This document shows, piece by piece, positions 2,310 through 41,374 of a DNA stretch of 43,686 nucleotides. Every line of letters starts with the position of its first letter. Position 1 is the first letter of the stretch. Below the pieces are notes generated by a model, which saw only the letters and a list, made by a program, of their open reading frames with translations, was not told where the DNA came from and searched no databases. The translations under genes and the position numbers were made by a program. This DNA comes from Verrucomicrobiota bacterium (GTDB lineage Bacteria; Verrucomicrobiota; Verrucomicrobiia; Limisphaerales; JADLHS01). Location of the stretch: the NCBI GenBank assembly GCA_008933055.1, contig WBXK01000003.1, forward strand, positions 1 through 43,686, read 5' to 3'.

Positions 2310-4097
2310 CTAAACAGTGGCATTTGTGGGCACCACTTCTGGTTCGACCCACTTGTTATGTTCTTTGATGAGGTCAACGAGGCGTTCCACCGCGTCGGCT
2401 TCGGGGATATTGAATTTGATCGGCGTTTTGCCGACGTAGAGATTGATCTTCCCGGGCGCGCCGCCCACGTATCCAAAGTCCGCATCAGCCATCTCGCCAG
2501 GTCCGTTCACGATGCAGCCCATGATGGCGATTTTTACACCTTTGAGATGTTCCGTACGCGTCTTGATGCGCGCGGTCACGGTCTGAAGATTGAACAACGT
2601 GCGCCCACAGCTTGGGCACGCGACGTAATCCGTCTTGAAGCTGCGGCATCCCGCCGCCTGCAAAATATTATAAGCCAACCGCAGCGATTGCCCCGCGCCA
2701 GATTCGTTGCGAACAAGGATCGCATCGCCGATTCCATCCGCCAGCAATGAGCCGATGACAACTGAAGCACGAAGCAAAGCGATCTTGGGTTCAAGCGCGC
2801 TGGATTCAAACGCCAGACAATCCTTCAGCAAGATCGGATTGTTGCGACCGAGCCGCTTCAATTTCGCCGCCAACAAACGGAATGCAGTGATAGCTGGCAG
2901 ATTCAAGCCATCCTTCACTGTAAGTAGTTGCGTGTCGCAATTGATCCCAAAGTCCTGCGTCGGATCAACCTCAGCGACGTTCAGGTCTTCATAAACCGCC
3001 TCCGGCTTCACGTCGTCCTTGGGTCGAATCTTCGGTGCAACCTTGTCCCACGTCCCACGAGTGACAACCACGCGGATGAGTTGTTCGCCGCCGCATTTGA
3101 CCTGTTCGTTCAACTCAATCTCCGGCGTTTCGCGGCGCTCAAAGTGGAAGGGGTCAAACGAAGGTTGAAGATTGAACGTAGAATGATGAAGATTCGCCAG
3201 CTTCGGAATCTGTGCCAACAAATCGCCGCAGACTTCAATCTCGCGAGGAGAATCTTCAGTCAACGAAACACGAATGGTATCGCCCAAGCCGTCGCACAAA
3301 AGCGAACCGATTCCGATGGCGGATTTGATCCGGCCATCTTCACCTTCGCCTGCTTCTGTGACACCAAGGTGAATCGGGTAATTCCAGTCGACCCCCTCCT
3401 GTTCGAGTCGCGCCACGAGCAGTCGATAGCACTCGATCATCACCTTCGGGTTACTCGACTTCATCGAGAACTTGAAATTCTGGAAGTCATGCTTGCGACA
3501 GATGCGTGCGAACTCCAGCGCGCTTTCCACCATGCCAAGCGGGGTGTCGCCGTAACGGTTCATGATGCGATCACTGAGCGAACCGTGATTGGTGCCGATA
3601 CGCATGGCGCGCTTGAGCCTGATGCACTCCAGCACGAGCGGCGTGAACTTTTCCTCGATGCGCCTCAACTCCTCAGCATATTGCGCGTCGGTGTATTCCT
3701 TGATAGCAAATTTTTTTGAGTCAGCGTAATTGCCTGGATTCACGCGCACGACTTCCACCCACTTTACAGCTTCCATCGCGGCCTCGGGCTTAAAGTGGAT
3801 GTCCGCGACGATGGGAACATTGCAGTCGCGCTTGCGAAGTTCAGTGACAATGTTCTGCAGGTTCGCCGCATCCTTCACCGTAGGCGCTGTAATGCGGACC
3901 AGCTGGCAACCGACGGCAACGAGATCAAGCGTCTGCTGCACGCTGGCCGTAGTATCCATCGTGTCGCAGGTGATCATGGACTGCGCCACGGCCGGATGAT
4001 TTCCGCCGATGACCACGCCTCCATTCTTAGGATCGCCGATCACGACTTCGCGCGTCTGACGACGCTTGCAAACGTAGGGAGACTCGCAGTAGCGCAT
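2310..4097 (-). CDS. ispG: (E)-4-hydroxy-3-methylbut-2-enyl-diphosphate synthase, long form
   Basis: Motifs QSM, VADIHF, RVNPGN, RIGTNHGSL, HLGVTEAG, CPSCGR and MGCIVNGPGE. Start moved to ATG 4097 (MRYCESPY), just downstream of rseP. Confidence 0.95.
   Translation of the reverse strand: MRYCESPYVCKRRQTREVVIGDPKNGGVVIGGNHPAVAQSMITCDTMDTTASVQQTLDLVAVGCQLVRITAPTVKDAANLQNIVTELRKRDCNVPIVADIHFKPEAAMEAVKWVEVVRVNPGNYADSKKFAIKEYTDAQYAEELRRIEEKFTPLVLECIRLKRAMRIGTNHGSLSDRIMNRYGDTPLGMVESALEFARICRKHDFQNFKFSMKSSNPKVMIECYRLLVARLEQEGVDWNYPIHLGVTEAGEGEDGRIKSAIGIGSLLCDGLGDTIRVSLTEDSPREIEVCGDLLAQIPKLANLHHSTFNLQPSFDPFHFERRETPEIELNEQVKCGGEQLIRVVVTRGTWDKVAPKIRPKDDVKPEAVYEDLNVAEVDPTQDFGINCDTQLLTVKDGLNLPAITAFRLLAAKLKRLGRNNPILLKDCLAFESSALEPKIALLRASVVIGSLLADGIGDAILVRNESGAGQSLRLAYNILQAAGCRSFKTDYVACPSCGRTLFNLQTVTARIKTRTEHLKGVKIAIMGCIVNGPGEMADADFGYVGGAPGKINLYVGKTPIKFNIPEADAVERLVDLIKEHNKWVEPEVVPTNATV
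3161..3195. repeat. degenerate heptamer tandem repeat in frame inside ispG
   Basis: aaggttg aagattg aacgtag aatgatg aagattc; encodes NLHHSTFNLQP on the minus strand. Confidence 0.7.
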
Positions 4098-4104
4098 GGG
4101 AAAA

Positions 4105-5526
4105 CTATTTCTTGGGCGCGAACATAATCGGCTCGTTGGCGCGACGCTCACTGCGAGAGTTCCGAATCCAATCGCCCACATCGTAGAACGCGATCCAGGC
4201 CATGAAACCGATCAACAGAATCGCAAACCCACTCTGAATATAATTCAGAATCTTCGGATTGACGGCACGCCGCCGCACGACCTCGATGAACGAGAGTAGA
4301 ATGTGACCACCATCTAGAACGGGCAGTGGCAGCATGTTGAGCATGGCGAGATTGACGTTCAACACAACGCTGAACCACAGCACCCAACGCCAACCGTCTT
4401 CGCTCTGAAAGAAGTTCGTATAGACACGGATGATCATCACGGCGCCGCCAAGTTGCTGCACGCCGATGTCGTTCTTCTTGTTGATGACCGCACCGACCGT
4501 CGCAAAGATTTGTTTCGCGCTCGCCTCGATCTGTTCCCAAGGACCAGGATACGTCAGCGTGTGATTCGTTTTGTCGAGCCAAACGATACCGAAGATCGGG
4601 GGAAAGTTCGTAGGTGTCGTGGGAGCTGCGGCAAGAATCTCCTTGTTGAACTCCTCAGTTCCGCGACGAACGGTGAGGTTGATCGGCGGAATGCTTTTGT
4701 TTGTCATCAGCTCCTGTGCGTATTCCACAGCGAGCAAGCTCAGAATCTTGTCACCATTGATAGCGACAATTTCATCTCCGCGTTTCAATCCCGCCAAATG
4801 TGCCGGACTGTTCGTCAACACGTCGCCGACGACAGGTTTTGCGATTGGCCCAAGATAAACCTGCCGCAACGCGCGGCGCTCATACCATGAGGTCTTTTGT
4901 TTGATGTAGGTTGGATAAGCCATCGCCTCCTTGCCATCACGCAGATATTTGACGGCAATATTCGTGCCCTCGCTCGTGATGATGCGCCACTTGATACTGT
5001 CCTGCGACGGTGGGCCAAAAGTTTTGATCGGGTGACCATCCACCTCTAGAATTTTATCGCCCGCGCGCAAGCCGGACTTCCAAGCTGGCCCCTCCGGCGT
5101 CACCCATCCAAGAACAGGTTCTACATCAGCAGCGCCTTCGGGCTTTCCGACTTGCCAAACGATGACAGCGAAAAGTATCGCGAGCAAAAAGCTAAACAGC
5201 GGCCCCGCGAAGGCCACGATGATTTTGTCCAACGGCGAAACATTCGGAAGTTGCTCAGCCTTCTCGTCGGTCTTTCCTTCGATGGCTTCCATCGTCGCCA
5301 TCTGTGGAAGGGAGACATAACCCCCAGCGGGAATCCAACCGAGCGCGTATTCGACACCGTTGAAGGTTTTACTCCAGATCGGTTTGCCAAACCAGATGGC
5401 GAAACGTTCAACCTTGAGACCACGCCAGCGGGCGGCGAGGAAGTGACCAAGTTCGTGGACGAAGATGAGAAGGTTCAGCGCGAACAACGCTTCCAAAACG
5501 ACGATGATGATTTTCAATATAGACAT
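4105..5526 (-). CDS. rseP: RIP metalloprotease RseP (M50, two PDZ domains)
   Basis: HELGH zinc motif, NMLPLPVLDGGH, two GLRAGD/GLKRGD PDZ motifs; adjacent to ispG. Confidence 0.93.
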   Translation of the reverse strand: MSILKIIIVVLEALFALNLLIFVHELGHFLAARWRGLKVERFAIWFGKPIWSKTFNGVEYALGWIPAGGYVSLPQMATMEAIEGKTDEKAEQLPNVSPLDKIIVAFAGPLFSFLLAILFAVIVWQVGKPEGAADVEPVLGWVTPEGPAWKSGLRAGDKILEVDGHPIKTFGPPSQDSIKWRIITSEGTNIAVKYLRDGKEAMAYPTYIKQKTSWYERRALRQVYLGPIAKPVVGDVLTNSPAHLAGLKRGDEIVAINGDKILSLLAVEYAQELMTNKSIPPINLTVRRGTEEFNKEILAAAPTTPTNFPPIFGIVWLDKTNHTLTYPGPWEQIEASAKQIFATVGAVINKKNDIGVQQLGGAVMIIRVYTNFFQSEDGWRWVLWFSVVLNVNLAMLNMLPLPVLDGGHILLSFIEVVRRRAVNPKILNYIQSGFAILLIGFMAWIAFYDVGDWIRNSRSERRANEPIMFAPKK

Positions 5527-5612
5527 GCGATAAACGTTTCACCCAAAGGGCGAGATGAGTATATCGGCGAAACCGTGGCGAGCAATGACGGCTTTCGATT
5601 CTTAGCACAAAC

Positions 5613-5642
5613 AAAAAAAGGCCGCGTCGTGAGACGCGGCCT
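5613..5642 (-). terminator. intrinsic terminator after fusA
   Basis: Perfect 10-bp stem aggccgcgtc/gacgcggcct with a 4-nt loop, followed by a U-tract on the minus strand. Confidence 0.85.
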
Positions 5643-5670
5643 GCTTGAATTCAACTGAACCTCGGCTCGA

Positions 5671-7887: not shown

Positions 7888-7903
7888 AAATTGTTTGAGT
7901 GAT

Positions 7904-7941
7904 AAAAAAAACGCCCCGAGCAGTATTTGCTTCCGGGGCGT
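7904..7941 (-). terminator. terminator-like hairpin in the rpsG-fusA spacer
   Basis: Minus strand reads cgccccg-ga-agca-aatac-tgct-cggggcg followed by 8 T. Confidence 0.6.
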
Positions 7942-7956
7942 ATAAAACTTTTCGGA

Positions 7957-8430: not shown

Positions 8431-8460
8431 GTGTTCGTTAAATTCTTTTGGGGTGAATGA

Positions 8461-8856
8461 TTACTTGGCAGGGGCGGCTTTTGCGGCTTTTGGACGCTTC
8501 ACGCCATACTTGGAACGGCTGACGCGGCGCTTCTCAACGCCAGCGGCGTCGAGCGTTCCACGCACAATGTGATAGCGCACACCGGGCAAATCTTTCACAC
8601 GACCACCGCGCACGAGCACGATGCTGTGTTCTTGAAGATTGTGACCTTCGTCCGGGATGTAAGCGATGATTTCGAAACCATTCGTCAAACGAACCTTCGC
8701 AACTTTACGCATCGCTGAGTTCGGCTTCTTAGGTGTGCGAGTCATGACTTGGATGCACACGCCACGACGGAAGGGCGAGTTATCCAGAGCCGGAGACTTG
8801 GACTTATACTTGATCTTATTACGGCCCTTACGGACCAATTGATTGATTGTCGGCAT
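8461..8856 (-). CDS. rpsL: 30S ribosomal protein S12
   Basis: [30 protein letters not shown]. Confidence 0.98.
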
Positions 8857-10566: not shown

Positions 10567-10598
10567 CAGGAGCATCGAGCATTGCTCGACCTGACAAT

Positions 10599-23578: not shown

Positions 23579-27377
<3,799 letters not shown>

Positions 27378-27438
27378 TCGTTTGCTTTCAAAACAGAAAC
27401 TGGATTCCTAACCCCAGAGTTTTGAGTAAGAAGGAGGG

Positions 27439-29361: not shown

Positions 29362-32300
29362 GTGTCTGAACCGAAATCATCCGCCGTCATCCGCCTGCGC
29401 GGGGTGCGGCATAATAATCTAAAGAACTTTGATCTCGATCTGCCACTGCACCGGCTCATCGTCATCACAGGCTTGAGCGGTTCGGGTAAAAGCTCGCTCG
29501 CCTTCGACACACTTTACGCCGAAGGCCAGCGTCGTTACCTAGAAACCTTCTCGCCTTATGCACGGCAGTTCTTCGACCGCATGGACAAGCCGCAAGTGGA
29601 CAGCATCGAAGGCATCCCGCCCGCCATCGCCATTGAGCAGCGCAACGCCGTTCGCTCCACGCGTAGCACCGTCGGCACGATGACCGAGATCTGTGACCAC
29701 ATGAAAGTGTTGTGGCCACATCTCGCGCAATTGCAATGTCGTAGCTGCGGCCAGCCGGTGCGTAAGGATTCACCGCAGAGTGTGTGGGAACAATTGAGTG
29801 CGGAACACGGAATCCAGAGTGCGGAATTGCTGATCGCATTCGATTTACCAATCTCACAGAAATTGTCACTAGAGGAGTCCCTCGCGTTGATTTCCAAACA
29901 AGGTTACCAGCGGCTGTTGCTGGATGGCGAAGTCATACGATTAGACGATGCGCCAACCCATTCCGCACTTTGCCCTCCGCACTCAGCACTAACGGTCGTT
30001 CAGGACCGCATCAAACTCGCGCCCACCTCCCGTTCCCGTTTCATCGAGGCCTGCGAGCAAGCCTACCATTTTGGCAAAGGCAAACTGTCCATCTCGGAAA
30101 TCAACCCTACATCTCCCAACCTCAATCCTCGCCAATTTTCTAACCGCCTTCACTGCGCCACCTGCGATATAGAATACCCCGAGACTTCGCCCGCGCTGTT
30201 CAGCTTCAATCACCCGCTCGGCGCGTGTCCGACCTGCAAAGGCTTCGGTCGCACCATCACGATAGATTACGAACTAGCCATTCCCGACCGGTCGCTGACC
30301 CTGGCCCAGGGCGCGGTCAAACCCTGGCGCACAGGCATGAGCGCCGAATGTCAGACGGACCTAAAAAAATTCTGCAAGTCCAGCCGCGTCCCTATGGACG
30401 TGCCGTTCAACCAGCTTTCCGCCGAACACCAACGGTGGATCATCGAAGGCGACAAGGATTACGGCATCGACGAAGACCACCAATGGCCGCGCGCCTGGTA
30501 CGGCGTGAAAGGCTATTTCCGCTGGTTAGAATCCAAGTCTTACAAGATGCACGTCCGCGTGCTGCTTTCGCGTTACCGCGCTTACACCAAATGCCCAACG
30601 TGTGACGGTGCGCGGCTGAAGCCGGGGGCGCTCCTCTATCTTCTCGCGACCGAGAAAAAAAAGCTGACGCTCCCCAACTTCTACGCCCTGCCTGTCCGCG
30701 ATGCGCTGGATCTGATCGAATCACTCGCAAACACGCGAACCCCAGACGCGCGACTCCAGACTCAAGACCCCATAACCCACGCCCTAGGCGAAGTCCGCGC
30801 TCGGCTCGCCTATCTCAATGAAGTCGGCCTAGGCTATCTAACATTAGATCGCCCCACTCGCACACTCAGCGGCGGGGAGACCGAACGCGTCAATCTCACG
30901 ACCTGCCTCGGCACACGCTTGGTGAACACGCTGTTTGTACTCGACGAACCCAGTGTTGGCTTGCACCCGCGCGACACCGACCGGCTCGTTCGCATTCTTG
31001 AAAAGCTTCGCGACACCGGGAACACCGTCGTTGTCGTCGAACATGAAGCCAGCGTCATGCGCGCTGCCGATCAGATTGTGGACATCGGCCCGGGCCACGG
31101 CGCAACCGGCGGAGAAGTTGTCTTCCAAGGAACTCTGCCAGAGTTATTAAAATCCAATCGCTCGCTCACCGGCCAATACCTGAGCGGGCGAAAGCAGATC
31201 GAGATTCCAAAACGTCGCCCCTTAACTAGCGACACGAGTCGGGTCAAGATCACCAATGCCACCCGCCACAATTTCAACAACGTTTCCGTCGAGATTCCGC
31301 TGGGCCGATTCGTCGCTATCACCGGCGTCAGTGGCTCAGGCAAATCTACGTTGATCCGCGACATCCTGCTCCCCGCACTTCAGGCTAAGCTGCAGAATCT
31401 GGATGCGGCTGTTGCAAAAGCGTCCGACCGGATGGATTCAGACGAAGACAGCAAGACTAACGAGGACGAAACGTCCAGTATCCATTCTCCACCCTCAATC
31501 CTCAGCGGTTTCGAAAGCCTCAGCCAGGTCGTACTTGTAGATCAATCCGCGCTGGGTAAAACCCCGCGTTCTAATCCGGCCGTTTACATCGGCGCGTTCG
31601 ACGACATCCGTGAAGTCTTCGCACAATCTGAAGTCGCGAAGCAACGCGGCCTCAACGCAAATGCCTTCAGTTTCAACTCTGGCGTCGGCCAGTGCGAAAA
31701 ATGTCGCGGCGCTGGCTTCGAGAAGATCGAGATGCAATTCCTCAGCGACATTTTCATTCGCTGCCCGGACTGCAATGGCCGCCGTTATAGGCAACACATC
31801 TTGGATGTCAAGATTTCCGCTGCGAAAGCAAAGCAGGATTTTTCCATCGGCGACATGCTCGAGGCGACAGTGGATGAAGCCATTGAGTTTCTCTCGGGCT
31901 TACCCGATTCCAAACCCGCTGAGCGTGCCGCAACAAGCTTGAAGTTTCTGCAAGAAGTCGGCCTCGGCTATCTGCGTTTGGGCCAACCCATCAACACGCT
32001 TTCCGGCGGCGAAAGCCAGCGCCTGAAACTCGTGCGCCATCTCGCGGAGGCTGTAGCGGCGGCCTATGACCGCAGAAACAAAGAAGCAACAGGTAACCAC
32101 GGTCACAGACCGCAACCACAACAGAAACCCACGCTCTTCCTCTTCGACGAACCCACCACAGGCCTGCACTTCGACGACGTCCGGGTGTTGCTCCAAGCGT
32201 TCCAACGCTTGGTGGACGCGGGACATTCCGTTCTCGTCATTGAACACAACCTCGACGTCATCAAATGCGCCGATTGGGTGATTGACCTTGGCCCGGAAGC

Positions 32301-35094
32301 TGGAGATCGCGGCGGACATATTGTCGCTACAGGAACACCCGAAGAAGTGGCGGACTGCGAGTCAAGTCACACGGGCATTTTTCTGCGAAACGTCCTGACT
32401 GAACAAAGCGGAAATGGAAAAGCACCGAAGCGGCGCAACCCCGCCCTATTTCCCATCTCCTATGTGCCATCTCCTATTTCGATCAGCGGCGCGAGAGAGC
32501 ACAACCTCAAAAACATCTCACTGACGATCCCGCGGGATCAATTCGTCGTCATCACCGGCGTGAGCGGTTCGGGCAAGAGCACACTGGCGTTTGATCTCCT
32601 TTTCAATGAGGGCCAGCGGCGCTTTCTCGATTCGATGAACGTCTATGCGCGACAATTCGTCGAGCAGATGGCGCGGCCCGACGTCGACTTGATCACTGGA
32701 ATTCCGCCCACGGTCAGCATTGAGCAACGTACCACGCGCGGCGGAGGCAAGAGCACCGTGGCAACCGTAACCGAGATTTATCATTTCATCCGCCTGCTCT
32801 TTGCGCGACTCGGCACGCAGTATTGTCCCGACTGCCAGTTACCGGTCGAGGCCCAGAGCCGCGACGAGCTTGCGAACCATCTACAATCGGAACTTAAGCG
32901 ACGTGGCGACCTCTTGCTGCTCGCGCCGATCGTGAAGAACCGGAAAGGTTTTCACACCGATGTCGCCGAGTGGGCTGCGAAACGTGGCTACAAACAAATC
33001 CGCGCAGATGGAAAAATTCACGACTCAAGCAAAGCCTTTCGAATGGATCGATTCAAGGAACACGATGTAGAGATCATTCTCGGCGTTGTGGAGAAAGGCA
33101 AAGGTAGCGTGGGACAGGAATTGGTAGACGAGGCGCTCAAGCTGGGTCACGGCACGCTCTACGCGCTGGATAATCAGAAGCAGCTCACTATTCATTCGAC
33201 CGAACGCGCCTGTCTAGGTTGCAATAAGTCTTTCGCTCTATTGGACCCAAAAAACTTTTCCTATAACTCCGCGCAAGGTTGGTGCACTAAATGTCGTGGC
33301 TTCGGCGAGTTGTTTTATCTGCCCGATGTGGAACGCGGCGCGGACGCCGATTCTATTGAAGAGAGCTGGTGGAGCTGGGCCACGGAGCGGGAAGTATGTC
33401 CCGAGTGCCATGGGGCACGCTTGAATCCAGTGGCGCGCGCTGTTCGTTTACGATTCGGAAGCGGCAAAACTGAGTCGCCGACGATTGATGCCTTCTCCGG
33501 GCTCGATGTGGAAGCGGCTTTCGATTTTGTTCGCAAGCTGAAGTTTACGGATCGCTCCGCCGAGATTGCCCGCGACATCATTCCTGAAATCCGTGAACGT
33601 TTAAGGTTTCTTAAGGAAGTCGGCCTAGGTTACATGCAGCTCGGCCGCGCCGTGCCCACTCTTTCCGGCGGTGAATCGCAACGCATCCGCCTCGCCGCAC
33701 AACTCGGTTCAAATCTCAGTGGCGTGCTATACGTGCTGGACGAACCGACCATCGGCCTCCATGCCCGCGACAACGAGCAACTGCTCGACGTGCTCCAGAA
33801 ACTGCGCGGGCGCGGCAACTCCGTAGTAGTCGTCGAGCACGATGAAGACACGATGCGCCGCGCTGATCACGTCATTGATCTTGGGCCGGGCGCAGGCGTG
33901 CATGGCGGGCGTGTCGTGGCGAGCGGGACACTTGCCGAGTTGGCAAAACACCCTGAATCCGTCACCGGCCAATGCCTGCGGGCAGAAAAGAAATTTCCTG
34001 CGCGGGGTGAACGGAGAAGCATTGAAAACGGTAAAGGGAGAAAGGGAGAGGGGGCAATGCTTACCCTCCGCAATGCGGCATTGAACAATCTCAAAAAGCT
34101 TACGGCGAACATTCCGCTCGGAAGGTTTGTTGTCGTGACCGGTGTGAGCGGCTCAGGCAAAAGCACCTTGATCCGCGAATGCTTGCTGCCGGAGTTGCAG
34201 GCAGTCGTGGCACAGAAGTCATCGGGGAAAAGCAAAAACCTGTCTGGCTTTGAATCGCTCAAGTCCGTTTACGAAGTGGATCAAGCCCCTATCGGCCGCA
34301 CTCCGCGCTCGATTCCCGCGACCTATGTGGGCTTCTTCGATGACATCCGTGCGTTGTTCTCACAAGTCCCCGAGGCGCGGATGCGCGGTTACTCGGCCAG
34401 CCGCTTCTCCTTCAATAGCTCGCAAGGGCGTTGCCCCGAGTGTGAAGGGGCAGGCCAGATCAAGCTGGAGATGAACTTTCTACCGCCTGCGTTTGTACGT
34501 TGCGAAACCTGCAACGGCACGCGATTCAATCGCGAAACGCTCGACATCGAATACTCCGGGAAAAACATCGCGCAAGTGCTCGACTTGTCCGTGGAGGAGG
34601 GCATTCAGTTTTTCGCTAGCGTCCAGAAAATCAAGCGCGCGCTCGAAGCCTTGCACGATACCGGACTGGATTATCTCAAACTCGGCCAGCAAAGCCCGAC
34701 GCTGAGCGGCGGCGAGGCGCAGCGCGTGAAACTGGTGACCCACCTCCTCACCGGCTTGAAGCCCGGACTGGATCTGGCACAAATGGCGAATCGCCGAACC
34801 AACATCGCAAAAAAAAATCTATTCATCCTCGAAGAACCGACTATTGGTCTGCACATGGCGGACGTGCGGCGGTTGGTCGGGGTTTTGCAACGACTCGTGG
34901 ATGCGGGACACTCCGTTATCGTCATCGAACATAATCTGGATTTGATTGCAGAGGCGGATTGGGTGATTGATCTCGGCCCGGAAGGTGGGGCGGGTGGTGG
35001 GCAGATTATTGCCGAAGGAACCCCCGAAGACATCGCCAAGAACAAGCACTCGCACACCGGGCGGTTCTTACGTAAGTTAATCGTAACAACATGA
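29362..35094 (+). CDS. uvrA: excinuclease ABC subunit A, double-length (two UvrA units, 1910 aa)
   Basis: Four Walker A motifs (GLSGSGKS, 3x GVSGSGKS), four LSGGE signatures, repeated CxxC zinc modules and two EGQRR motifs. Confidence 0.95.
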   Translation: MSEPKSSAVIRLRGVRHNNLKNFDLDLPLHRLIVITGLSGSGKSSLAFDTLYAEGQRRYLETFSPYARQFFDRMDKPQVDSIEGIPPAIAIEQRNAVRSTRSTVGTMTEICDHMKVLWPHLAQLQCRSCGQPVRKDSPQSVWEQLSAEHGIQSAELLIAFDLPISQKLSLEESLALISKQGYQRLLLDGEVIRLDDAPTHSALCPPHSALTVVQDRIKLAPTSRSRFIEACEQAYHFGKGKLSISEINPTSPNLNPRQFSNRLHCATCDIEYPETSPALFSFNHPLGACPTCKGFGRTITIDYELAIPDRSLTLAQGAVKPWRTGMSAECQTDLKKFCKSSRVPMDVPFNQLSAEHQRWIIEGDKDYGIDEDHQWPRAWYGVKGYFRWLESKSYKMHVRVLLSRYRAYTKCPTCDGARLKPGALLYLLATEKKKLTLPNFYALPVRDALDLIESLANTRTPDARLQTQDPITHALGEVRARLAYLNEVGLGYLTLDRPTRTLSGGETERVNLTTCLGTRLVNTLFVLDEPSVGLHPRDTDRLVRILEKLRDTGNTVVVVEHEASVMRAADQIVDIGPGHGATGGEVVFQGTLPELLKSNRSLTGQYLSGRKQIEIPKRRPLTSDTSRVKITNATRHNFNNVSVEIPLGRFVAITGVSGSGKSTLIRDILLPALQAKLQNLDAAVAKASDRMDSDEDSKTNEDETSSIHSPPSILSGFESLSQVVLVDQSALGKTPRSNPAVYIGAFDDIREVFAQSEVAKQRGLNANAFSFNSGVGQCEKCRGAGFEKIEMQFLSDIFIRCPDCNGRRYRQHILDVKISAAKAKQDFSIGDMLEATVDEAIEFLSGLPDSKPAERAATSLKFLQEVGLGYLRLGQPINTLSGGESQRLKLVRHLAEAVAAAYDRRNKEATGNHGHRPQPQQKPTLFLFDEPTTGLHFDDVRVLLQAFQRLVDAGHSVLVIEHNLDVIKCADWVIDLGPEAGDRGGHIVATGTPEEVADCESSHTGIFLRNVLTEQSGNGKAPKRRNPALFPISYVPSPISISGAREHNLKNISLTIPRDQFVVITGVSGSGKSTLAFDLLFNEGQRRFLDSMNVYARQFVEQMARPDVDLITGIPPTVSIEQRTTRGGGKSTVATVTEIYHFIRLLFARLGTQYCPDCQLPVEAQSRDELANHLQSELKRRGDLLLLAPIVKNRKGFHTDVAEWAAKRGYKQIRADGKIHDSSKAFRMDRFKEHDVEIILGVVEKGKGSVGQELVDEALKLGHGTLYALDNQKQLTIHSTERACLGCNKSFALLDPKNFSYNSAQGWCTKCRGFGELFYLPDVERGADADSIEESWWSWATEREVCPECHGARLNPVARAVRLRFGSGKTESPTIDAFSGLDVEAAFDFVRKLKFTDRSAEIARDIIPEIRERLRFLKEVGLGYMQLGRAVPTLSGGESQRIRLAAQLGSNLSGVLYVLDEPTIGLHARDNEQLLDVLQKLRGRGNSVVVVEHDEDTMRRADHVIDLGPGAGVHGGRVVASGTLAELAKHPESVTGQCLRAEKKFPARGERRSIENGKGRKGEGAMLTLRNAALNNLKKLTANIPLGRFVVVTGVSGSGKSTLIRECLLPELQAVVAQKSSGKSKNLSGFESLKSVYEVDQAPIGRTPRSIPATYVGFFDDIRALFSQVPEARMRGYSASRFSFNSSQGRCPECEGAGQIKLEMNFLPPAFVRCETCNGTRFNRETLDIEYSGKNIAQVLDLSVEEGIQFFASVQKIKRALEALHDTGLDYLKLGQQSPTLSGGEAQRVKLVTHLLTGLKPGLDLAQMANRRTNIAKKNLFILEEPTIGLHMADVRRLVGVLQRLVDAGHSVIVIEHNLDLIAEADWVIDLGPEGGAGGGQIIAEGTPEDIAKNKHSHTGRFLRKLIVTT
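29796..29990. repeat. pair of inverted heptamer arms in frame inside uvrA
   Basis: gagtgcg gaacacg gaatcca gagtgcg (29796-29823) and cgcactt tgccctc cgcactc agcact (29964-29990); gagtgcg is the reverse complement of cgcactc. Confidence 0.75.
30737..30771. repeat. heptamer tandem repeat in uvrA
   Basis: gaacccc agacgcg cgactcc agactca agacccc, encoding TPDARLQTQDP. Confidence 0.65.
31474..31503. repeat. heptamer tandem repeat in uvrA
   Basis: tccagta tccattc tccaccc tcaatcc, encoding SSIHSPPSIL. Confidence 0.6.
32052..32120. repeat. GTAG-type REP-like inverted doublet in frame inside uvrA
   Basis: tgtagcggcggcctatgaccg versus the reverse complement of cggtcacagaccgcaaccaca: 16/21 identical; each arm is itself palindromic. 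Confidence 0.7.
32445..32479. repeat. heptamer tandem repeat at the junction of the two UvrA units
   Basis: cctattt cccatct cctatgt gccatct cctattt, encoding LFPISYVPSPI. Confidence 0.7.
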
Positions 35095-35570
35095 TCGATC
35101 CCTACGAAGAAACGATTCAAGGCGAGACCACGTTACGAATGCCGCTAGGCGGGCGACATGAATTGATCTGCACGCGACTTCAAACAGCGTTGACTGCGAG
35201 CGTTACTGATTTTCCGGGCACAAAGTTACACGAACTTCGCAGCGCGATGCGCGTGGACGCTAACAATCTTCTGCGTCCAGACATCGCTATCGCGACCGCC
35301 GCCACGGGCAAAATCTGGCTCGTCGCAGAAGTCGTCAGTTCGGAAGACCATCACGCTGACACCGTGGAAAAGAAACAGATCTACGAAACGATGAAACTTC
35401 CGCGTCTCTGGATGATTGACCCACGCTACAACAATGTGGAGGTGTATCACGCCACAGAATATGGGATGCGACTAGAACACATCCTCGCTGGTTCCGACGT
35501 GCTCACGGAGAAACTACTGCCGAAGTTTCAGTTGGCGATTGCGGATTTATTTGCTTCGAATCACACGTGA
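35091..35570 (+). CDS. Uma2-family (PD-(D/E)xK) endonuclease-like protein
   Basis: RPDIA, LVAEVVS, D..EKKQIY, LWMIDP and LLPKFQL..ADLF; ATGA overlap with the uvrA stop. Confidence 0.85.
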   Translation: MIDPYEETIQGETTLRMPLGGRHELICTRLQTALTASVTDFPGTKLHELRSAMRVDANNLLRPDIAIATAATGKIWLVAEVVSSEDHHADTVEKKQIYETMKLPRLWMIDPRYNNVEVYHATEYGMRLEHILAGSDVLTEKLLPKFQLAIADLFASNHT

Positions 35571-35591
35571 ACAAGCTTCACGCGCTGGCGC

Positions 35592-36245: not shown

Positions 36246-36898
36246 CGTCCGTCTGCCTTGAGCCGTGCCTGTATGTCTTCGATCAACAAGCAGCTCGTCT
36301 GCTCGCTCGTCATGTTCGAGTTGTTGATGACCTTCGCACCCAGCGCAATCATCAACGGTGCGGCGGCGCGCTGGCTGTCACGTTGATCTCGATCGGCGAG
36401 ATTTTCATTCACGCCCTCTGCCACGCGACGCTTCGTGCGCTCTTCAAGATGCGCGTCGAGGTAGTATTTGTAGTCTGTCTCGGGGAAAACATTCGTGCCG
36501 ATGTCGCGACCTTCCATCACCATATTGCCGAACTGGATGCAATCACGCTGCGCCTTCTTCATCCACTCGCGCACCCTCGGCACAGCGGCAATCATCGAAA
36601 CGGCCACACTGACCTCCACGAGACGGATTTCTTTCTCGGGAAAATAACCATCCACCGTGAGGCGCACCTTGGCCTCCACGCATTCCAACTTAGTATTCCA
36701 CTTGCGACACGCCACAGCCACGGCTTTGGCGTCATGGAAATCAATGCGCTTGGACAGGCAATACCACGCAAGCGTGCGATACATCGCGCCGGTGTCCACA
36801 TAGACGTAGCCGAGCGCCTTCGCGACCAACTTGGCGTTGGTGCTCTTGCCGCTGGCGCTCGTGCCATCAATGGCGATGACATTAGGATGTTTCTTCAC
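36242..36898 (-). CDS. cmk: cytidylate kinase
   Basis: IAIDGTSASGKST, DTGAMYR, EGRDIGT and RDQRD. Start is GTG 36898 or TTG 36904. Confidence 0.93.
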   Translation of the reverse strand: MKKHPNVIAIDGTSASGKSTNAKLVAKALGYVYVDTGAMYRTLAWYCLSKRIDFHDAKAVAVACRKWNTKLECVEAKVRLTVDGYFPEKEIRLVEVSVAVSMIAAVPRVREWMKKAQRDCIQFGNMVMEGRDIGTNVFPETDYKYYLDAHLEERTKRRVAEGVNENLADRDQRDSQRAAAPLMIALGAKVINNSNMTSEQTSCLLIEDIQARLKADGR

Positions 36899-36914
36899 AA
36901 TCAAAAAACTGAGC

Positions 36915-36975
36915 TTAGAAAGAATTCACATCATTTTCAGAATTGAATTTTGTGAATTCGGTTAATTCTGCCTGA
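36915..36975. repeat. inverted-arm repeat element in the aroA-cmk spacer
   Basis: Three AGAATT-like units at 9-bp period (36921-36944) mirrored by three AATTCT-like units (36946-36969). Confidence 0.7.
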
Positions 36976-36976
36976 T

Positions 36977-38323
36977 TTAATCCGCAAACAAATCTTCCCC
37001 GGCCAACTTCCGGGTGCGTTGACCGTCTTTGACTTCCCAAATCTCTACACCTAAGCCGTTCGGCGGCGCGGCAGCCAACTTCTGGAAAAAATTGGGGAAC
37101 GTCTTCTTTACACAGGAAGGATTCTTGAGGCGAATGCCCGGCACTTTCAATCCCAGAATTGCGAAACACATCGCCATACGATGGTCGTTGTAGGTCTCGA
37201 TCTCTGCGCCGTGGAGCGTTTGGTCAGAATATACCGTCAAAGCATCGCCATTCTCGACAACATGAGCGCCAATTCTTGTTAGCTGCTCGCGCAAAGCCAC
37301 AACGCGCTCACACTCCTGAACTCGCAATCGACCAAGATCAGTAAACCGAATCGGTTCAGCCATCCCGGTTGTCCCGAGCGCTTGATTGAGAGGCGCTTTG
37401 GCGATCGCAGTCATGATACTGTCGCCGAGATGAACCTTTCGCGATAGAAAACCGCTCAGCTCAACCAGATTACAATACTTGGGATAGTCAGAGTCGATCT
37501 GCCAGGTTGTCTTAGGCCAATGCGCAACGGTAATCCAACCCATCTCTGGGTTCTTTCGAGCAATCCACGCCACCCAATCCGCCGCTAAAAAATAGCTCCC
37601 GCCCGAAGCGTCCGGCTCAATCTGGAATTTACCGCCACCCCAAGGAAATGCTTCTACCAATCGCTCGGTCATGGTCACGTATGGTGCTTCCTCGTCATCA
37701 TCGCCAGCCAAATCGACATGCCAACAGCCGTGTTTGGCAGAAAGCTTCAACGCCGAAGCGAATTGAGAACTTTCGTCGATGCTCACTGTGCAGCTTCTTA
37801 CCTCCGCTTTCTCTCCTCGCACCTGCCCTTGAATTACCGCGGGCAACTTTTCATTCGTTGCGTCCACGCGATAGCCAAGCTCGCGAAGCGCCTGGAACAG
37901 CGCTGCCTGCGGACGCTCGTGCATTCGCGACACACCGCTCAATCGATACACGCCAGCACCGAGACAGACCATCGCCGCCAAAAATCGCGCCGCCGTGCCC
38001 GCATTGCCAACAAACAATTCTAGCGGCTTCTCCGCCGTACCCGCCTTGGGAATTCTGCCGCCCTGCCCTTGGACCGTGATAGTGCGATTACAAAACTCCG
38101 CCGGATCATTCTCCACGCGCACATCAAAGCCCATCGTCCGCAACGCCTCGGTCATCACCTGCGTGTCTTCGCTCCAGAGCGCGCCAGTCAAAGTCACCTC
38201 ACCCTCTGCAAGCGCCGCGAGTATGAGAGCGCGGTTCGTGATGCTCTTCGAACCCGGCACGGTGATTTCCGCGCGCACGGATTTGTCGGGAGGGACGATT
38301 TCGATGAGGTCGGGTAAAGCCAT
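36977..38323 (-). CDS. aroA: 3-phosphoshikimate 1-carboxyvinyltransferase
   Basis: PGSKSITNR, GNAGTAARF, SSQF, LRVQECER, DHRMAM and CVKKTFP. Confidence 0.95.
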   Translation of the reverse strand: MALPDLIEIVPPDKSVRAEITVPGSKSITNRALILAALAEGEVTLTGALWSEDTQVMTEALRTMGFDVRVENDPAEFCNRTITVQGQGGRIPKAGTAEKPLELFVGNAGTAARFLAAMVCLGAGVYRLSGVSRMHERPQAALFQALRELGYRVDATNEKLPAVIQGQVRGEKAEVRSCTVSIDESSQFASALKLSAKHGCWHVDLAGDDDEEAPYVTMTERLVEAFPWGGGKFQIEPDASGGSYFLAADWVAWIARKNPEMGWITVAHWPKTTWQIDSDYPKYCNLVELSGFLSRKVHLGDSIMTAIAKAPLNQALGTTGMAEPIRFTDLGRLRVQECERVVALREQLTRIGAHVVENGDALTVYSDQTLHGAEIETYNDHRMAMCFAILGLKVPGIRLKNPSCVKKTFPNFFQKLAAAPPNGLGVEIWEVKDGQRTRKLAGEDLFAD

Positions 38324-38332
38324 GCTTCGTTA

Positions 38333-38419
38333 AGCCACAGATGAAACACAGATGAAACACAAATAAGAATGCCGACTCGGAGAAAGCCACCTGAGCAGCA
38401 TCTGTAGGAATTTGTGGCT
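38333..38419. repeat. inverted-arm repeat element in the tyrA-aroA spacer
   Basis: agccacagatgaa acacagatgaa acacaaat (11-bp units) ... atctgtagga atttgtggct; terminal inverted repeat matches 9/10. Confidence 0.8.
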
Positions 38420-38424
38420 GAAAT

Positions 38425-39309
38425 TCATTCTAGGGAAGGCGACGCGCAGCAGGCACACCAGTTATCGCGACGCTGCTTGGCGGTTTCATAAAACTTCGCG
38501 ATGGCCTTCGCGTCGCCACGTTTTAGGGCAGATTGAAACTTGTTCAACTCGGCGATAAATCCACTCAACGCCCGCCCGATTTGTTTACGATTGGTCACCG
38601 CGATGTCCCGCCACATTTCCGGTGAGCCTGATGCCACCCGGGTCGTGTCGCGAAAGCCGGTGGCGCAAAGCAGCGCCTGCTCCTTCGGCAGTTTGGGATC
38701 AAGCACGAGATTCGCCAGCGTGGCTGCCATCAAGTGCGGTAGATGACTGGAACGGCTGACAAACGCATCATGCTCATCGGGGGAAGCACGCAGCAACCGC
38801 GCGCCGACATCTTTCCAAAGCGTCTCCACCTTGCGCCACGCCGCTGGATTAGTGTTCTGCGTCGGAGTCACCACACAAACCGCGCATTCAAACAATTCAG
38901 CACGCGCCGCCAGCACGCCCTGTTTCTCACCGCCCGTCATCGGATGGCTGCCAATAAAGTGCGCTCCAGCCTTCGCGACAAGCGATTCCAACTCGCGCAC
39001 CACGCTGCCCTTCACGCTGCCGACGTCGGTGATGATTGCGCCGCGCTTGATTGCGGGGAGCATTTGGCGCATCAGTGGCTTCATCTGCGACAACGGCGTA
39101 CACAGCACGATTAAATCAGCGCCGGAAACCGCCGCGAGCAGATCAGTAGTGGCGTAATCTGTCGCACCCGCGCGTTCACATTCCTTGATGCTCACCTCGC
39201 GCCGAACGTATCCCGCAATCTCTTTAGCAAGTTTACGTCGGCGCAGCGCCAAGCCGAGCGAACCGCCCAGCAAGCCCACGCCTACGAGTGTGATTTTATT
39301 CCAACGCAC
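38425..39309 (-). CDS. tyrA: prephenate/arogenate dehydrogenase
   Basis: VGVGLLGGS, TDVGSVK, HPMTG, EHD....SSHLPH and GFRDTTRVASGSPEMW. Confidence 0.93.
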   Translation of the reverse strand: MRWNKITLVGVGLLGGSLGLALRRRKLAKEIAGYVRREVSIKECERAGATDYATTDLLAAVSGADLIVLCTPLSQMKPLMRQMLPAIKRGAIITDVGSVKGSVVRELESLVAKAGAHFIGSHPMTGGEKQGVLAARAELFECAVCVVTPTQNTNPAAWRKVETLWKDVGARLLRASPDEHDAFVSRSSHLPHLMAATLANLVLDPKLPKEQALLCATGFRDTTRVASGSPEMWRDIAVTNRKQIGRALSGFIAELNKFQSALKRGDAKAIAKFYETAKQRRDNWCACCASPSLE

Positions 39310-39316
39310 ACGGGAA

Positions 39317-39351
39317 GGATAGCGGATGGAGGATGGAAGATGGAAGATGGA
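39317..39351. repeat. heptamer tandem repeat upstream of tyrA
   Basis: ggatagc ggatgga ggatgga agatgga agatgga. Confidence 0.85.
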
Positions 39352-39369
39352 AAGTAGCCCGGCGTGAGT

Positions 39370-40452
39370 TTAAATCTTTTGAACCGGAACCAATCGGCCT
39401 CTATCGCGCGCCGAAGCGAGACATGCGTCTAGGACGAGTTGCGTCTTCAGGGCTACTTCCGGCCAGAATTCGTTCAGCTTACCGGACTGAACGTAGGCGG
39501 CAAAATTGCGGATCATCAGAGTGTCTTGCGCGGTGGGATGGCCGAGTTGCGGCAATGCCCCGGCGTCGAGCGGCACAACTGTGCCCGTCGCCGCAGGGAT
39601 ACGATGCTCGGTCGCGTTGATGTCATACGCGGACTCGTAGCTGTTGCGTGGATGCACATAGTCGGCCGTGCGCAGCGTTCCCTGCGTGCCCATAAAGCTG
39701 ACCCATTGCTGAGCCGCAATGGCAAAGGAACAATGGAAGCCAGCAGAGACGCCATTCGCGAAAAACAGTTCGCCGGAGAACAGCGTTGGCGTCACGCCGT
39801 CAGCCGCGACTGCTAAGATGCGTCCGGCGGCGGTCGGCAGCTCCCAATTCATCGCGAACAATGAGATCCGGAGGCAATAACAACAGAGATCACCGAGACA
39901 GCCGTAGGGTTTGAGCGAACTCTGCACGCGGATGTTCGCTGGGAAATTGGGATTGTCGCCGAGGAAGCTGAACTCCGACGCGATGCGACGCAGCGGCCCA
40001 ATGCGATTTGCGTCATCCAGCACCGCCCGCACCAAGGCGAGGCGCGGATGATGCATGAACATGACGCCGTCCATGAACTGCACGCCATATTGCCGGCAGA
40101 CGGCGAGCATCTCGCGCAAGTCTGCCGCGTTCGCAGCGCAGGGTTTTTCCCTGAACACATGTTTGCCGGCTCGGACTGCTCGGATGACCCATTCCTTGCG
40201 CACCACCGTCGGCAACGGAATGTAAACTGCATCAATCTCGGGAGTGGCGAGCGATGCTTCGTAGCTACCATGAACTTTTGGCGCAGGCTCGAAAGTCGCC
40301 TGCACCTGACATTCGCGGATGAATTGTTGACCACGCGCCACGTCGCGGGCCGCGAGAGCGGCGGCGACGCCATTTCCGGAATTGAAGAACGCCTTCCAGT
40401 TTTTGGGGGCGATGCTCGCCGCGCCGAGAATCCCCCAACGGAGTTTGGTAAT
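39370..40452 (-). CDS. Gfo/Idh/MocA oxidoreductase lacking a canonical start codon (possible pseudogene)
   Basis: In-frame ITKLRWGILGAASIA begins at ATT 40452, with an in-frame TAA just upstream. Also DAVYIPLP, KHVFREKP and MDGVMF. Confidence 0.75.
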   Translation of the reverse strand: MTKLRWGILGAASIAPKNWKAFFNSGNGVAAALAARDVARGQQFIRECQVQATFEPAPKVHGSYEASLATPEIDAVYIPLPTVVRKEWVIRAVRAGKHVFREKPCAANAADLREMLAVCRQYGVQFMDGVMFMHHPRLALVRAVLDDANRIGPLRRIASEFSFLGDNPNFPANIRVQSSLKPYGCLGDLCCYCLRISLFAMNWELPTAAGRILAVAADGVTPTLFSGELFFANGVSAGFHCSFAIAAQQWVSFMGTQGTLRTADYVHPRNSYESAYDINATEHRIPAATGTVVPLDAGALPQLGHPTAQDTLMIRNFAAYVQSGKLNEFWPEVALKTQLVLDACLASARDRGRLVPVQKI

Positions 40453-40476
40453 GGGTTCAAGTTACCAAAAACAACA

Positions 40477-40532
40477 AAGGAGGAACTCAGAAACTCCAAA
40501 ACATGCATTCGTGAGTTCCTGAATTCCTCCTT
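40477..40532. repeat. inverted-arm repeat element after cbiX
   Basis: aaggaggaactcagaaactccaaaa versus the reverse complement of ttcgtgagttcctgaattcctcctt: 20/25 identical; 8-bp units. Confidence 0.8.
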
Positions 40533-41374
40533 CACACCTTGTCTTTAGAATTGATTGCCGCCTCGCGCGCGCGTTCCAAAACCACCTCCGCCATGAGCGG
40601 CTCGCTGCCGATGGCTTGCGAATACCACGTAAGCTTGCCCAGTTTCTCCGAGGGATTGCGCCACGTCGGCAGCCCGGCGGCGAGACGTTCTTTGACCAGT
40701 CGCTCGGGTTCGCCCAGCAACACCGGAATATCCTCGGCTGTATGCAAGCCATCGCTGATAAAGAATGGCACAACGACGACGTTGCGGGTCGTGGCGGTGG
40801 CCTGACATCCTTTGATGCGTGGGTCTTCGTCCATGTAAATGGCCTGGACATCCGCATAGAGATTTTGCGTGCGGATCAATTCCACCTGTCGCTCGATAGC
40901 CAGGCGCGATTGCGCACTGCGTTCTGTTCCGTGTCCGGCGATGAAGAGTGTGATGTCCTTGGGCTTCGGCGCATGCGGAAAGGGAAATTGTTCCACCACG
41001 CCCCGGGCGCGGGCAAGTAACACATTGGTCATGCTTGGGTGTGTACCGACGGGCTTGGCGTAGATCAGGCTGAACTCTGGGGTTTGGACTCTGGAGTTCG
41101 CGTCCAGCCCCAGTTCGCGAGGGATGACTTCGCCAGCAAAATATCCTTCGCTGATCATCAACGGGACGACGTAAACGCGCGGGGTTTTGATCTCGGCGAG
41201 AACGGCTTTGATCTGCGGCTCTTGTTTCCAGAACGCCTCGCACACCGCTGCGAACATTCCGCGCCGGCGCAACTCAGAAGCGTGCTGCATCACAGGCAGC
41301 GCCGAACCGTCATTGAGGGTCGTGCCATGGCCGAGGATGACCAGTGTGGCATCTTTGAAATTTTCAGTATTCAT
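40532..41374 (-). CDS. CbiX/SirB-family chelatase-like protein (two domains)
   Basis: LGHGT, AFWKQEP, VVPLMISEGYF, AGHGT and VVPFFISDGLHTAEDIP. Confidence 0.85.
   Translation of the reverse strand: MNTENFKDATLVILGHGTTLNDGSALPVMQHASELRRRGMFAAVCEAFWKQEPQIKAVLAEIKTPRVYVVPLMISEGYFAGEVIPRELGLDANSRVQTPEFSLIYAKPVGTHPSMTNVLLARARGVVEQFPFPHAPKPKDITLFIAGHGTERSAQSRLAIERQVELIRTQNLYADVQAIYMDEDPRIKGCQATATTRNVVVVPFFISDGLHTAEDIPVLLGEPERLVKERLAAGLPTWRNPSEKLGKLTWYSQAIGSEPLMAEVVLERAREAAINSKDKV

What the first reader, a model, noticed from the sequence alone, without database searches (positions are those of the whole stretch)
3161..41100. 7-bp tandem repeats sitting in frame inside conserved genes
Seen: degenerate heptamer arrays of 4-5 units in ispG (3161-3195), uvrA (29796, 29964, 30737, 31474, 32445, plus an 8-mer array at 34024-34054), aroA (37794-37824, QVRGEKAEVRS) and cbiX (41073-41100, NSRVQTPEF). 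A 7-bp period is not a codon multiple, so the pattern arises at DNA level, yet every frame stays open. The 31474 array resembles the reverse complement of the intergenic (RGATGGA)n array at 39317. The cbiX array shares a 12-mer (aactctggggtt) with the spacer at 27410-27421. Inference: a repeat-seeding process adds new peptide loops to housekeeping proteins, analogous to cyanobacterial STRR heptamers or Rickettsia palindromic elements, but with many different unit sequences.
Basis: partly seen in the sequence, partly recalled or inferred. Interest (0 to 1): 0.72.

Follow-up and report, generated by a model that had tools for sequence, protein, structure and literature searches.

The report
Heptamer repeats overwrite essential gene linkers
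Runs of four or five 7-base repeats sit in frame inside housekeeping genes of this freshwater Verrucomicrobiota bacterium, and in related species the same slot holds up to ten different repeat types at identical length, so the repeats likely overwrite tolerant protein linkers instead of adding to them, probably through a process tied to small four-helix-bundle genes that are bracketed by the same kinds of repeat.

Summary
The arrays are real, though individually decayed. In coding DNA genome-wide, 66 period-7 arrays occur against 12.8 in synonymous-codon shuffles; the 12-mer shared with 27410 is chance.

They mostly replace loop sequence instead of adding it. At the ispG slot, 12 of 62 orthologous alleles carry strong arrays of ten different units, all 12 at the modal length of alleles without a strong 7-mer array and in the same position. 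lpxB, cbiX, pheT and three uvrA slots behave alike. Perfect arrays are bounded (52 of 94 are 29-33 nt).

The units are those of the inverted arms flanking four-helix-bundle (TIGR02436, IVS-type) genes: 77 of 106 such genes have arms on both sides, against 4 of 1593 control genes. Matching arrays cluster near their cassette (19 of 61 against 2.4).

Best reading: a cassette-linked, one-step, length-neutral writer of about 32-nt modules. Its enzyme is unidentified, and no reverse transcriptase tracks with it.

This scan has reported the repeat/four-helix-bundle link many times on other DNA. What this window adds is the equal-length overwriting, which my ten paper searches did not find in print.

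The parts
3161..3195 (-). Five decayed heptamer units (AACCTTC type, downstream-arm orientation) in ispG, aa 302-314, the linker after the N-terminal domain
   Evidence: Perfect 5-unit allele in G001; ten units at one length in orthologs.
29796..29826 (+). G-rich upstream-type arm (GAGTGCG/GCGGAAT) in uvrA, aa 145-155; inverted partner of 29962-29992
   Evidence: Duplex -38.4 kcal/mol against -19.0 +/- 5.9 for equally spaced uvrA segments, reached by 0.2% of 2000.
29962..29992 (+). C-rich downstream-type arm (ACTCCGC) in uvrA, aa 201-212
   Evidence: The two arms pair in the predicted fold, but the whole-region z-score is only -1.54.
30737..30779 (+). Downstream-type array (ACTCCAG/ACTCAAG) in uvrA, aa 459-472, between two predicted helices
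   Evidence: (five unit families in 6 array alleles).
31474..31504 (+). Downstream-type array (CCATCCT family) in a lineage-specific uvrA loop, aa 705-715
   Evidence: Falls in a gap against PDB 2R6F; pLDDT under 50 for most of it.
32404..32481 (+). Linker fusing the two UvrA halves: shrunken upstream arm (about 32404-32423) plus downstream arm (32445-32481, CCATCTC/CCTATCT)
   Evidence: G001, G010 and G022 keep both arms in frame; the window's linker is 105 nt against 126 nt in G001, 21 nt less.
34022..34054 (+). 8-mer upstream-type arm (AAAGGGAG) in the second UvrA half
   Evidence: Same unit in G012; complete two-armed 8-mer hairpin at this slot in G039; REP-like palindromes in others.
37794..37824 (-). 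Decayed upstream-type array (GGTGCGA) in aroA, aa 167-177, replacing a shorter loop (net +12 nt)
   Evidence: Predicted coil between strands 162-165 and 176-181.
39317..39352 (-). Intergenic solo downstream-type arm (CCATCCT/CCATCTT on the sense strand) ending 8 nt before the prephenate dehydrogenase start
   Evidence: Cassette downstream arms end just before start codons in the same way.
41071..41100 (-). Decayed downstream-type array (AACTCCA/GAGTCCA) in the CbiX-like gene
   Evidence: seven or more units at this slot in the genus, mostly at one block length.
2310..4100 (-). ispG (long, three-domain type), host gene
   Evidence: TIGR00612 above cut-off.
29362..35094 (+). Fused double uvrA, 1910 aa, host gene
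   Evidence: TIGR00630 above cut-off; split in several relatives.
36977..38323 (-). aroA, host gene
   Evidence: TIGR01356 at E 5e-74, below the curated cut-off; PDB matches.
40532..41374 (-). CbiX-like chelatase gene, host gene
   Evidence: PRK02395 and CfbA models, below cut-offs.

Best explanation
The in-gene arrays are 4-5-unit heptamer runs of the same unit families as the inverted arms around four-helix-bundle (IVS-type, TIGR02436) genes, and they likely arise by a one-step, length-neutral overwriting of about 28-35 bases of a tolerant linker, repeated many times at the same slot with whatever unit is then active. SHOWN: arms bracket the four-helix-bundle genes, with one orientation after a stop codon and its complement before a start codon; unit type follows protein clade; in-gene slots hold different perfect units at one length, position and mostly one orientation; arrays are born near 32 nt with preferred ends and then decay, and this window's are old and fixed. 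INFERRED: the four-helix-bundle protein, predicted to be a pentamer like its solved relatives, binds its own unit (five subunits for 4-5 units), acts mostly near its own gene, and lets a host repair polymerase or recombination step write a fresh module between short matches 28 or 35 nt apart, often on an older arm. Equal-length swaps keep the frame by construction, and other outcomes are purged. The catalytic step is not identified, and the cassettes that would have written this window's arrays are no longer in this assembly.
For: ispG: 12 of 62 distinct alleles have strong arrays, ten units, eight perfect, all 12 in a 51-nt block, the modal length of the rest (30 of 50). lpxB: G000, G011, G010, G012, G017 and G013 (77-84% DNA identity for the pairs computed) share a 66-nt block and carry units of four families; one perfect array is shared by G007, G002, G019 (third-position identity 64-71%) and G028 (41-50%). 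Over 11 slots, 59 of 81 array alleles lie within 3 nt of the slot's modal length. States are scattered on trees built without the loops. After removing duplicates, 52 of 94 arrays with three or more perfect units are 29-33 nt and 3 of 94 are 39 nt or longer; modal end phases are 25 and 24 of 41 against 17.4 expected, p 0.0002 and 0.0005. 77 of 106 four-helix-bundle genes have arrays on both sides against 4 of 1593 control genes, and 57 of 89 arm pairs are reverse complements within one base. Units cluster by protein clade. 21 of 42 strong G000 arrays, and 11 of 25 in CDSs, match an arm unit exactly, against 3.4-5.2 and 2.0-2.6 expected. 19 of 61 non-arm arrays within about 1.5 kb of a cassette match that cassette's unit, against 2.4. 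The G000 protein matches PDB 2GSC, five chains, E 9e-15.
Against: G000 has only 2 four-helix-bundle genes but about 70 units, and none of the window's arrays matches those two cassettes; the assembly is 78% complete. Away from cassettes, the match of arrays to the own genome's arms is weak (9 of 69 exact against 4.0, p 0.008; p 0.02-0.26 at other settings); the stronger figure was inflated by proximity. Only 2 of the 10 ispG units match a sampled arm exactly, against 0.9 expected. Array density against cassette count gives rho 0.38, p 0.015, among 40 related genomes, with counter-examples: G010 has 1 gene and many arrays, G016 and G020 have 6 genes and none. No catalytic activity is known to me for this family. 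Orientation at lpxB is mixed by base skew and ambiguous for one unit. Some slots do hold net insertions (aroA, ribH in G001 and G022, full hairpins). No event was caught in progress.
Confidence: 0.5

Rival explanations
1. One-step replacement happens, but by host gene conversion or short-tract recombination among existing arrays, within or between genomes. The four-helix-bundle gene is a passenger that benefits from arms and does not direct the writing.
For: Explains kept length, register and orientation through homology. G007 has the same 33-nt perfect array in ispG and cbiX. Weak genome-level match between arrays and resident cassettes.
Against: Unit follows protein clade. Local enrichment, 19 of 61 against 2.4, though near donors could also give it. 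Many cassette arms are imperfect while in-gene arrays are perfect. Does not explain where new perfect units of bounded size come from.
Confidence: 0.2
2. Two-armed hairpins insert into loops like MITEs, then collapse by deletion to one arm because selection restores loop length.
For: Complete in-frame hairpins exist at these slots: ispG in G021 (+48 nt), uvrA 34024 slot in G039, the uvrA linker in G001, G010 and G022, and near cassettes. REP-like palindromes insert at the same loops. Solo arms remain at some emptied gene junctions.
Against: All 12 strong ispG heptamer alleles have identical length, position and orientation. Sister species differ by concerted base changes in all copies (G005 against G007). 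Collapse should leave either arm and varied ends.
Confidence: 0.17
3. Ordinary polymerase slippage of local 7-mers, filtered by selection for frame: the explanation offered for heptamer repeats by Mrazek et al. 2007, as summarised in PMC4679880.
For: Changes of exactly 21 nt are seen: lpxB in G023 (+21) and the window's uvrA linker against G001 (-21). Array starts overlap bases already present in array-free alleles.
Against: Slippage changes length by multiples of 7, yet 39 of 81 alleles show no offset and 20 more only 3 nt. By inference, in-frame steps of 21 nt can homogenise only copies three units apart, so they cannot make four adjacent copies of a new unit perfect. Sizes are capped near 33 nt. 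Units are shared with cassette arms.
Confidence: 0.07
4. The arrays are regulatory binding or RNase III sites on mRNA that selection keeps perfect while the cognate protein is present.
For: Arms sit at stop and start codons. The 29796/29964 pair can form a stable duplex. The Coxiella IVS, whose 5' part has heptamer repeats, is cut by RNase III (PMC4990558).
Against: Only 12 of 144 G000 arrays have an inverted partner within 1 kb. The two uvrA arms change unit independently in G006, G010 and G011. The window's arrays are decaying. Selection alone does not supply the multi-base swaps.
Confidence: 0.06

Closest known systems
Heptamer long simple-sequence repeats: TAACTGA of Beggiatoaceae (PMC4679880), GGGAATC of Xanthomonas and Nostoc (PMC4692102), Geobacter metallireducens heptamer and octamer elements (PMC2700814); cyanobacterial STRR (recalled)
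   Same: 7-nt period; 4-5 copies preferred; closeness to start and stop codons; inverted pairs; some copies inside genes.
   Different: Those papers treat one or a few units per genome, mostly intergenic, and in the passages I read propose regulation, G-quadruplexes or slippage. Here about 70 units occur, 80 of 144 arrays are inside CDSs, and orthologous slots swap units at equal length.
ORF-bearing intervening sequences of 23S rRNA (Coxiella S23p IVS, PMC4990558; PF05635/TIGR02436; PDB 2GSC)
   Same: Same protein family; gene enclosed by complementary arms; the Coxiella element has tandem heptamers before its ORF.
   Different: Cassettes here lie at junctions of protein-coding genes in the flanks examined, not in rRNA. 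The window holds no such gene, only arm-type arrays in frame. RNA excision was not tested.
Rickettsia palindromic elements and intragenic GTAG REPs of Opitutus terrae (PMC10969869, PMC3733652)
   Same: Small repeated DNA read in frame in unrelated housekeeping proteins, including uvrA. REP-like palindromes occupy the same ispG, aroA and uvrA loops in relatives.
   Different: RPEs and REPs are palindromic insertions that add residues. These are tandem arrays of many units that mostly replace sequence at zero net length. No Y1 transposase was found in G000.
Diversity-generating retroelements (Avd pentamer with reverse transcriptase; bioRxiv 10.1101/2023.10.23.563531) and DRT10/telomerase-type repeat synthesis (bioRxiv 10.1101/2025.10.16.682844)
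   Same: Avd is a pentamer similar to S23-type proteins and binds RNA; constant-length replacement of coding sequence by DGRs is recalled; DRT10 makes tandem repeats from a short RNA template.
   Different: No reverse transcriptase in G000 and in only 14 of 41 genomes. G001, G007 and G012 have perfect in-gene arrays and no RVT_1 match. I did not search for template/variable repeat pairs or adenine-specific change.

Membership tests
Heptamer long simple-sequence repeats (STRR-like) | Tandem 7-nt units in excess of chance, dispersed in the genome | tested here: met
   114 against 8-14; 66 against 12.8 in CDSs.
Heptamer long simple-sequence repeats (STRR-like) | Copy-number variation by slippage in steps of one unit | tested here: not met
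   59 of 81 alleles within 3 nt of modal length; only isolated 21-nt changes; no gaps in same-species contigs.
IVS-type four-helix-bundle cassette | PF05635/TIGR02436 gene enclosed by complementary arms | tested here: met
   Met for the genome and relatives; the window itself holds only arm-type arrays, no such gene.
IVS-type four-helix-bundle cassette | Location inside 23S rRNA | tested here: not met
   Flanks shown are protein-coding gene junctions; rRNA loci were not searched separately.
IVS-type four-helix-bundle cassette | Excision from RNA by RNase III | not testable with these tools
   Only contigs were available, and the one RNA holder had a share of 0.05.
Rickettsia palindromic elements / intragenic REPs | In-frame presence in unrelated housekeeping genes | tested here: met
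   80 of 144 arrays inside CDSs.
Rickettsia palindromic elements / intragenic REPs | Palindromic element of conserved sequence inserted as a net addition | tested here: not met
   Tandem arrays of many units; zero net length at ispG; 12 of 144 paired.
Rickettsia palindromic elements / intragenic REPs | RAYT (Y1) transposase in the genome | tested here: inconclusive
   PF01797 not found in G000, 78% complete; relatives not searched.
Diversity-generating retroelement | Cognate reverse transcriptase | tested here: not met
   None in G000; 14 of 41 genomes, 7 of 23 high-quality ones, against 38 of 41 with four-helix-bundle genes.
Diversity-generating retroelement | Template/variable repeat pair with adenine-specific mutagenesis | not tested
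   No search was run; the alleles seen differ by whole-unit change.
DRT10/telomerase-like repeat synthesis | Reverse transcriptase with a non-coding template RNA | tested here: not met
   No reverse transcriptase tracks with the arrays. Fixed end phases are only a works-like resemblance.

The most novel reading that the evidence does not exclude
Bacteria carry an undescribed, RT-independent repeat writer. Each clade of IVS-type four-helix-bundle pentamer specifies one heptamer and has a 4-5-unit module written into DNA near its gene at constant length. This builds the arms of its own cassette and serially recodes linkers of essential enzymes (ten different peptides in one IspG slot), and would account for the long-unexplained heptamer repeats of bacteria.
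Probability: 0.35. Interest if true: 0.92.

Novelty: new variant of a known kind. Interest (0 to 1): 0.76.

Why it matters
Heptamer repeats are an old unexplained excess in bacterial genomes, usually put down to slippage. The ispG and lpxB slots show ten and about nine different units written at one place at the same or nearly the same length, which slippage does not predict. That turns the puzzle into a testable claim about a one-step replacement process and gives the function-less four-helix-bundle family a candidate role. It is also a route of protein evolution in which about ten residues of an essential enzyme change in one event without a frameshift, and a warning that such linkers mislead alignments and dN/dS estimates.

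Tried and rejected
1. The 12-mer shared by cbiX and 27410-27421: chance.
2. The genome-wide match of arrays to the own genome's cassette arms looked strong (18 of 117 exact against 6.1) but was largely due to arrays close to cassettes; in housekeeping loci alone it is weak.
3. A match within one base of some arm unit is uninformative, since random 7-mers reach it about three times in four; only exact matches are used.
4. A reverse-transcriptase or Y1-transposase writer in G000: none found; RVT_1 does not follow the arrays in relatives. No further four-helix-bundle remnants in G000.
5. A conserved RNA hairpin in uvrA: whole-region z -1.54, 18 of 200 shuffles as good; the arms switch unit independently.
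6. Ongoing variation: none in contigs of 4 of the 24 listed runs. Contigs drop rare variants, and no useful RNA run was available.
7. Weak extra candidates at 26285, 30101 and 42607 score 20-21/28, the level of shuffles, and are not counted.
8. The UvrA model is of low confidence (mean pLDDT 65) and is used only for loop placement.
9. A plasmid search with IspG and a taxonomy look-up added nothing.
10. Rows dropped: 5 of 111 cassette loci not located; 13 of 147 short or weak TIGR02436 matches; the 28 most distant of 80 ispG loci were not given, and 20 of the 82 given did not fit its anchor pattern.
11. Mrazek et al. 2007 is not held and is known here only through PMC4679880.

Full report
SETTING. 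The window is contig C3 of a 2.5-Mb, 78%-complete assembly. The closest IspG relatives are mostly labelled Verrucomicrobia, several as subdivision 3, and the DNA occurs in lake and river metagenomes. Genes were called in the genome with a dicodon model of my own (2292 genes). G-numbers are unnamed relatives: G001-G023 same genus, G024 same family, G025-G040 same order.

1. OBSERVATION. Each in-gene array alone is weak (11/24 to 19/29 lag matches), and most are missed by Tandem Repeats Finder. The genome-wide signal is clear: 114 period-7 loci against 8-14 in shuffles, and 66 against 12.8 inside CDSs after synonymous-codon shuffling, 24 against 0.2 at the stricter cut. About 70 units are involved. 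The 12-mer link to 27410 is chance. Same-species contigs from four runs cross the uvrA, aroA-region, 39317 and cbiX arrays with few differences and no gaps.

2. WHAT ORTHOLOGS SHOW. At cbiX, most same-genus alleles have one block length but carry different units (ACTCCAG-type in G000, GACTACG in G017, GACTCAA in G011, ACCATCC in G012, GACTTCA in G007 and G004), and other families have a longer plain loop. At ispG, 62 distinct alleles were lined up. Twelve have strong 7-mer arrays of ten units, eight of them perfect; all twelve have a 51-nt block, the modal length of the other alleles (30 of 50), and all start in the same place in the pyrimidine-rich orientation. I repeated the test on three G000 arrays outside the window. 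In lpxB, six close species share a 66-nt block with units of four families, about nine units occur in all, and one perfect array is shared by species whose third codon positions are only 41-71% identical. pheT has six unit families at 63-66 nt, and ribH has two at 66 nt plus longer alleles. Over 11 slots, 39 of 81 array alleles equal the modal length and 20 more differ by 3 nt. On trees built without the loops, sister species differ in state. Orientation is constant per slot in most cases; lpxB is mixed by base skew, and the uvrA 34024 slot includes a full hairpin. The same loops hold REP-like palindromes or other hairpins in other species; intragenic GTAG REPs are in print for Opitutus terrae uvrA (PMC3733652, passages). 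The slots are loops or linkers: aroA between two strands, ispG after the first domain, uvrA in coils or low-confidence stretches.

3. MODULE SIZE. Of 94 non-redundant arrays with three or more perfect units, 52 are 29-33 nt and 3 are 39 nt or longer. Within unit families, starts and ends fall on preferred phases (25 and 24 of 41, null 17.4). The lower bound is set by the search; the upper bound is not.

4. LINK TO FOUR-HELIX-BUNDLE GENES. TIGR02436 is found in 38 of 41 genomes, twice in G000. 77 of 106 such genes have 7/8-mer arrays on both sides against 4 of 1593 control genes, and the arms are inverted, G-rich upstream and C-rich downstream in most. In a fuller inventory, 100 of 136 have both arms and the unit follows the protein tree. 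Half of the strong G000 arrays match an arm unit exactly (21 of 42, null 3-5). Arrays near a cassette tend to use its unit (19 of 61 against 2.4), often as gene-less hairpins, one of them in frame. Of 49 cassette flanks mapped onto G000, those displayed are mostly empty junctions; some keep a solo arm (C51) and one has a hairpin of another unit (C64). In the window, 29796 and 29964 form an inverted pair around 45 ordinary codons, and the UvrA fusion linker is a two-armed hairpin in G001, G010 and G022, of which the window keeps a version 21 nt shorter than G001's. Against the link: neither G000 cassette matches the window's units; the own-genome match away from cassettes is weak; the ispG units match sampled arms no better than chance (2 of 10); the density correlation is modest and not phylogenetically independent (rho 0.38).

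5. MECHANISM. Slippage changes length by multiples of 7. Staying in frame needs steps of 21 nt, which can homogenise only copies three units apart (inference), so four adjacent perfect copies of a new unit at unchanged length in an essential gene point to a single templated replacement. I judge it most likely (0.5) that the cassette system supplies unit and size. The G000 protein matches the five-chain structure 2GSC; that protein is described as a homopentamer (PMC4990558), and the related Avd is a pentameric RNA-binding barrel, which fits 4-5 units per module. Binding, action in cis and the use of a host polymerase are inferred, not shown. A resident reverse transcriptase is not required. 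Rivals are host gene conversion (0.2), hairpin insertion and collapse (0.17), slippage (0.07) and selected regulatory sites (0.06). Slippage and hairpin insertion clearly occur as secondary events.

6. WHAT IS KNOWN. I read passages of PMC4679880 (including its Introduction), PMC2700814 (legends of its supplementary files, not the files, which may bear on in-gene arrays), PMC4692102, PMC4990558, PMC4060949, PMC10969869, PMC3733652 and bioRxiv 10.1101/2023.10.23.563531, and the abstract of bioRxiv 10.1101/2025.10.16.682844. Heptamer arrays of four units, inverted pairs, in-gene copies and heptamers in one IVS are all in print. Ten searches listed no paper that states a general arm rule for four-helix-bundle genes or equal-length unit swapping in coding slots; most subscription journals are not covered. 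STRR and gene names for loci outside the window (lpxB, pheT, ribH) are recalled from the sequences, not from a family search. Earlier notes of this scan already report the four-helix-bundle link (51 findings) and different elements at the same uvrA loops; one word search for same-site replacement returned nothing.

7. VERDICT. The comparative pattern (fixed-size modules of many units written over one coding slot without a length change) is robust and unexplained by the standard model. The cassette link is well supported for the arms and moderately supported for in-gene arrays. The enzyme is open. Interest 0.76.

Noticed in passing
window 38336-38361: An 11-nt tandem repeat just upstream of aroA; at this junction G008 has a four-helix-bundle gene (G008:C10:48034-48348). 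Similar CACAGA-rich repeats lie beside a GxxExxY gene in G000 (L153) and form a hairpin in the aroA loop of G016 and G020, which suggests a second repeat and protein family.
   Followed up: partly
ispG, aroA and uvrA 34024 slots in relatives (L061-L120, L031-L060): Several families of GTAG-type palindromes occupy the same loops in frame in other species, so three kinds of small element compete for the same tolerant sites.
   Followed up: partly
window 29362-35094: Double UvrA, fused in some relatives and split in others; in G001, G010 and G022 the fusion linker is a two-armed heptamer hairpin, so a repeat hairpin supplies the joint of a gene fusion.
   Followed up: yes
window 40470-40530 and 36915-36975: Imperfect intergenic hairpins of other repeat types between the Gfo/Idh-like gene and cbiX, and between cmk and aroA.
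   Followed up: no
window 39370-40341 (-): The Gfo/Idh/MocA-like oxidoreductase ORF seems to lack its N-terminus in frame and scores far below family cut-offs; possibly a decaying gene.
   Followed up: no
window 35091-35570 (+): Small gene right behind uvrA without an NCBIfam match; it resembles Uma2-type nucleases (recalled) and follows uvrA in G013, G004 and G034 too.
   Followed up: no
window 344-736 (+): Cysteine-rich 130-aa ORF with a lipoprotein-like signal and no NCBIfam match.
   Followed up: no
cassettes L284, L305, L326, L354, L356 and L257, L281, L361, L364: Some four-helix-bundle clades have arms of reversed base skew (C-rich upstream, G/T-rich downstream), so orientation is a property of the clade.
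   Followed up: partly
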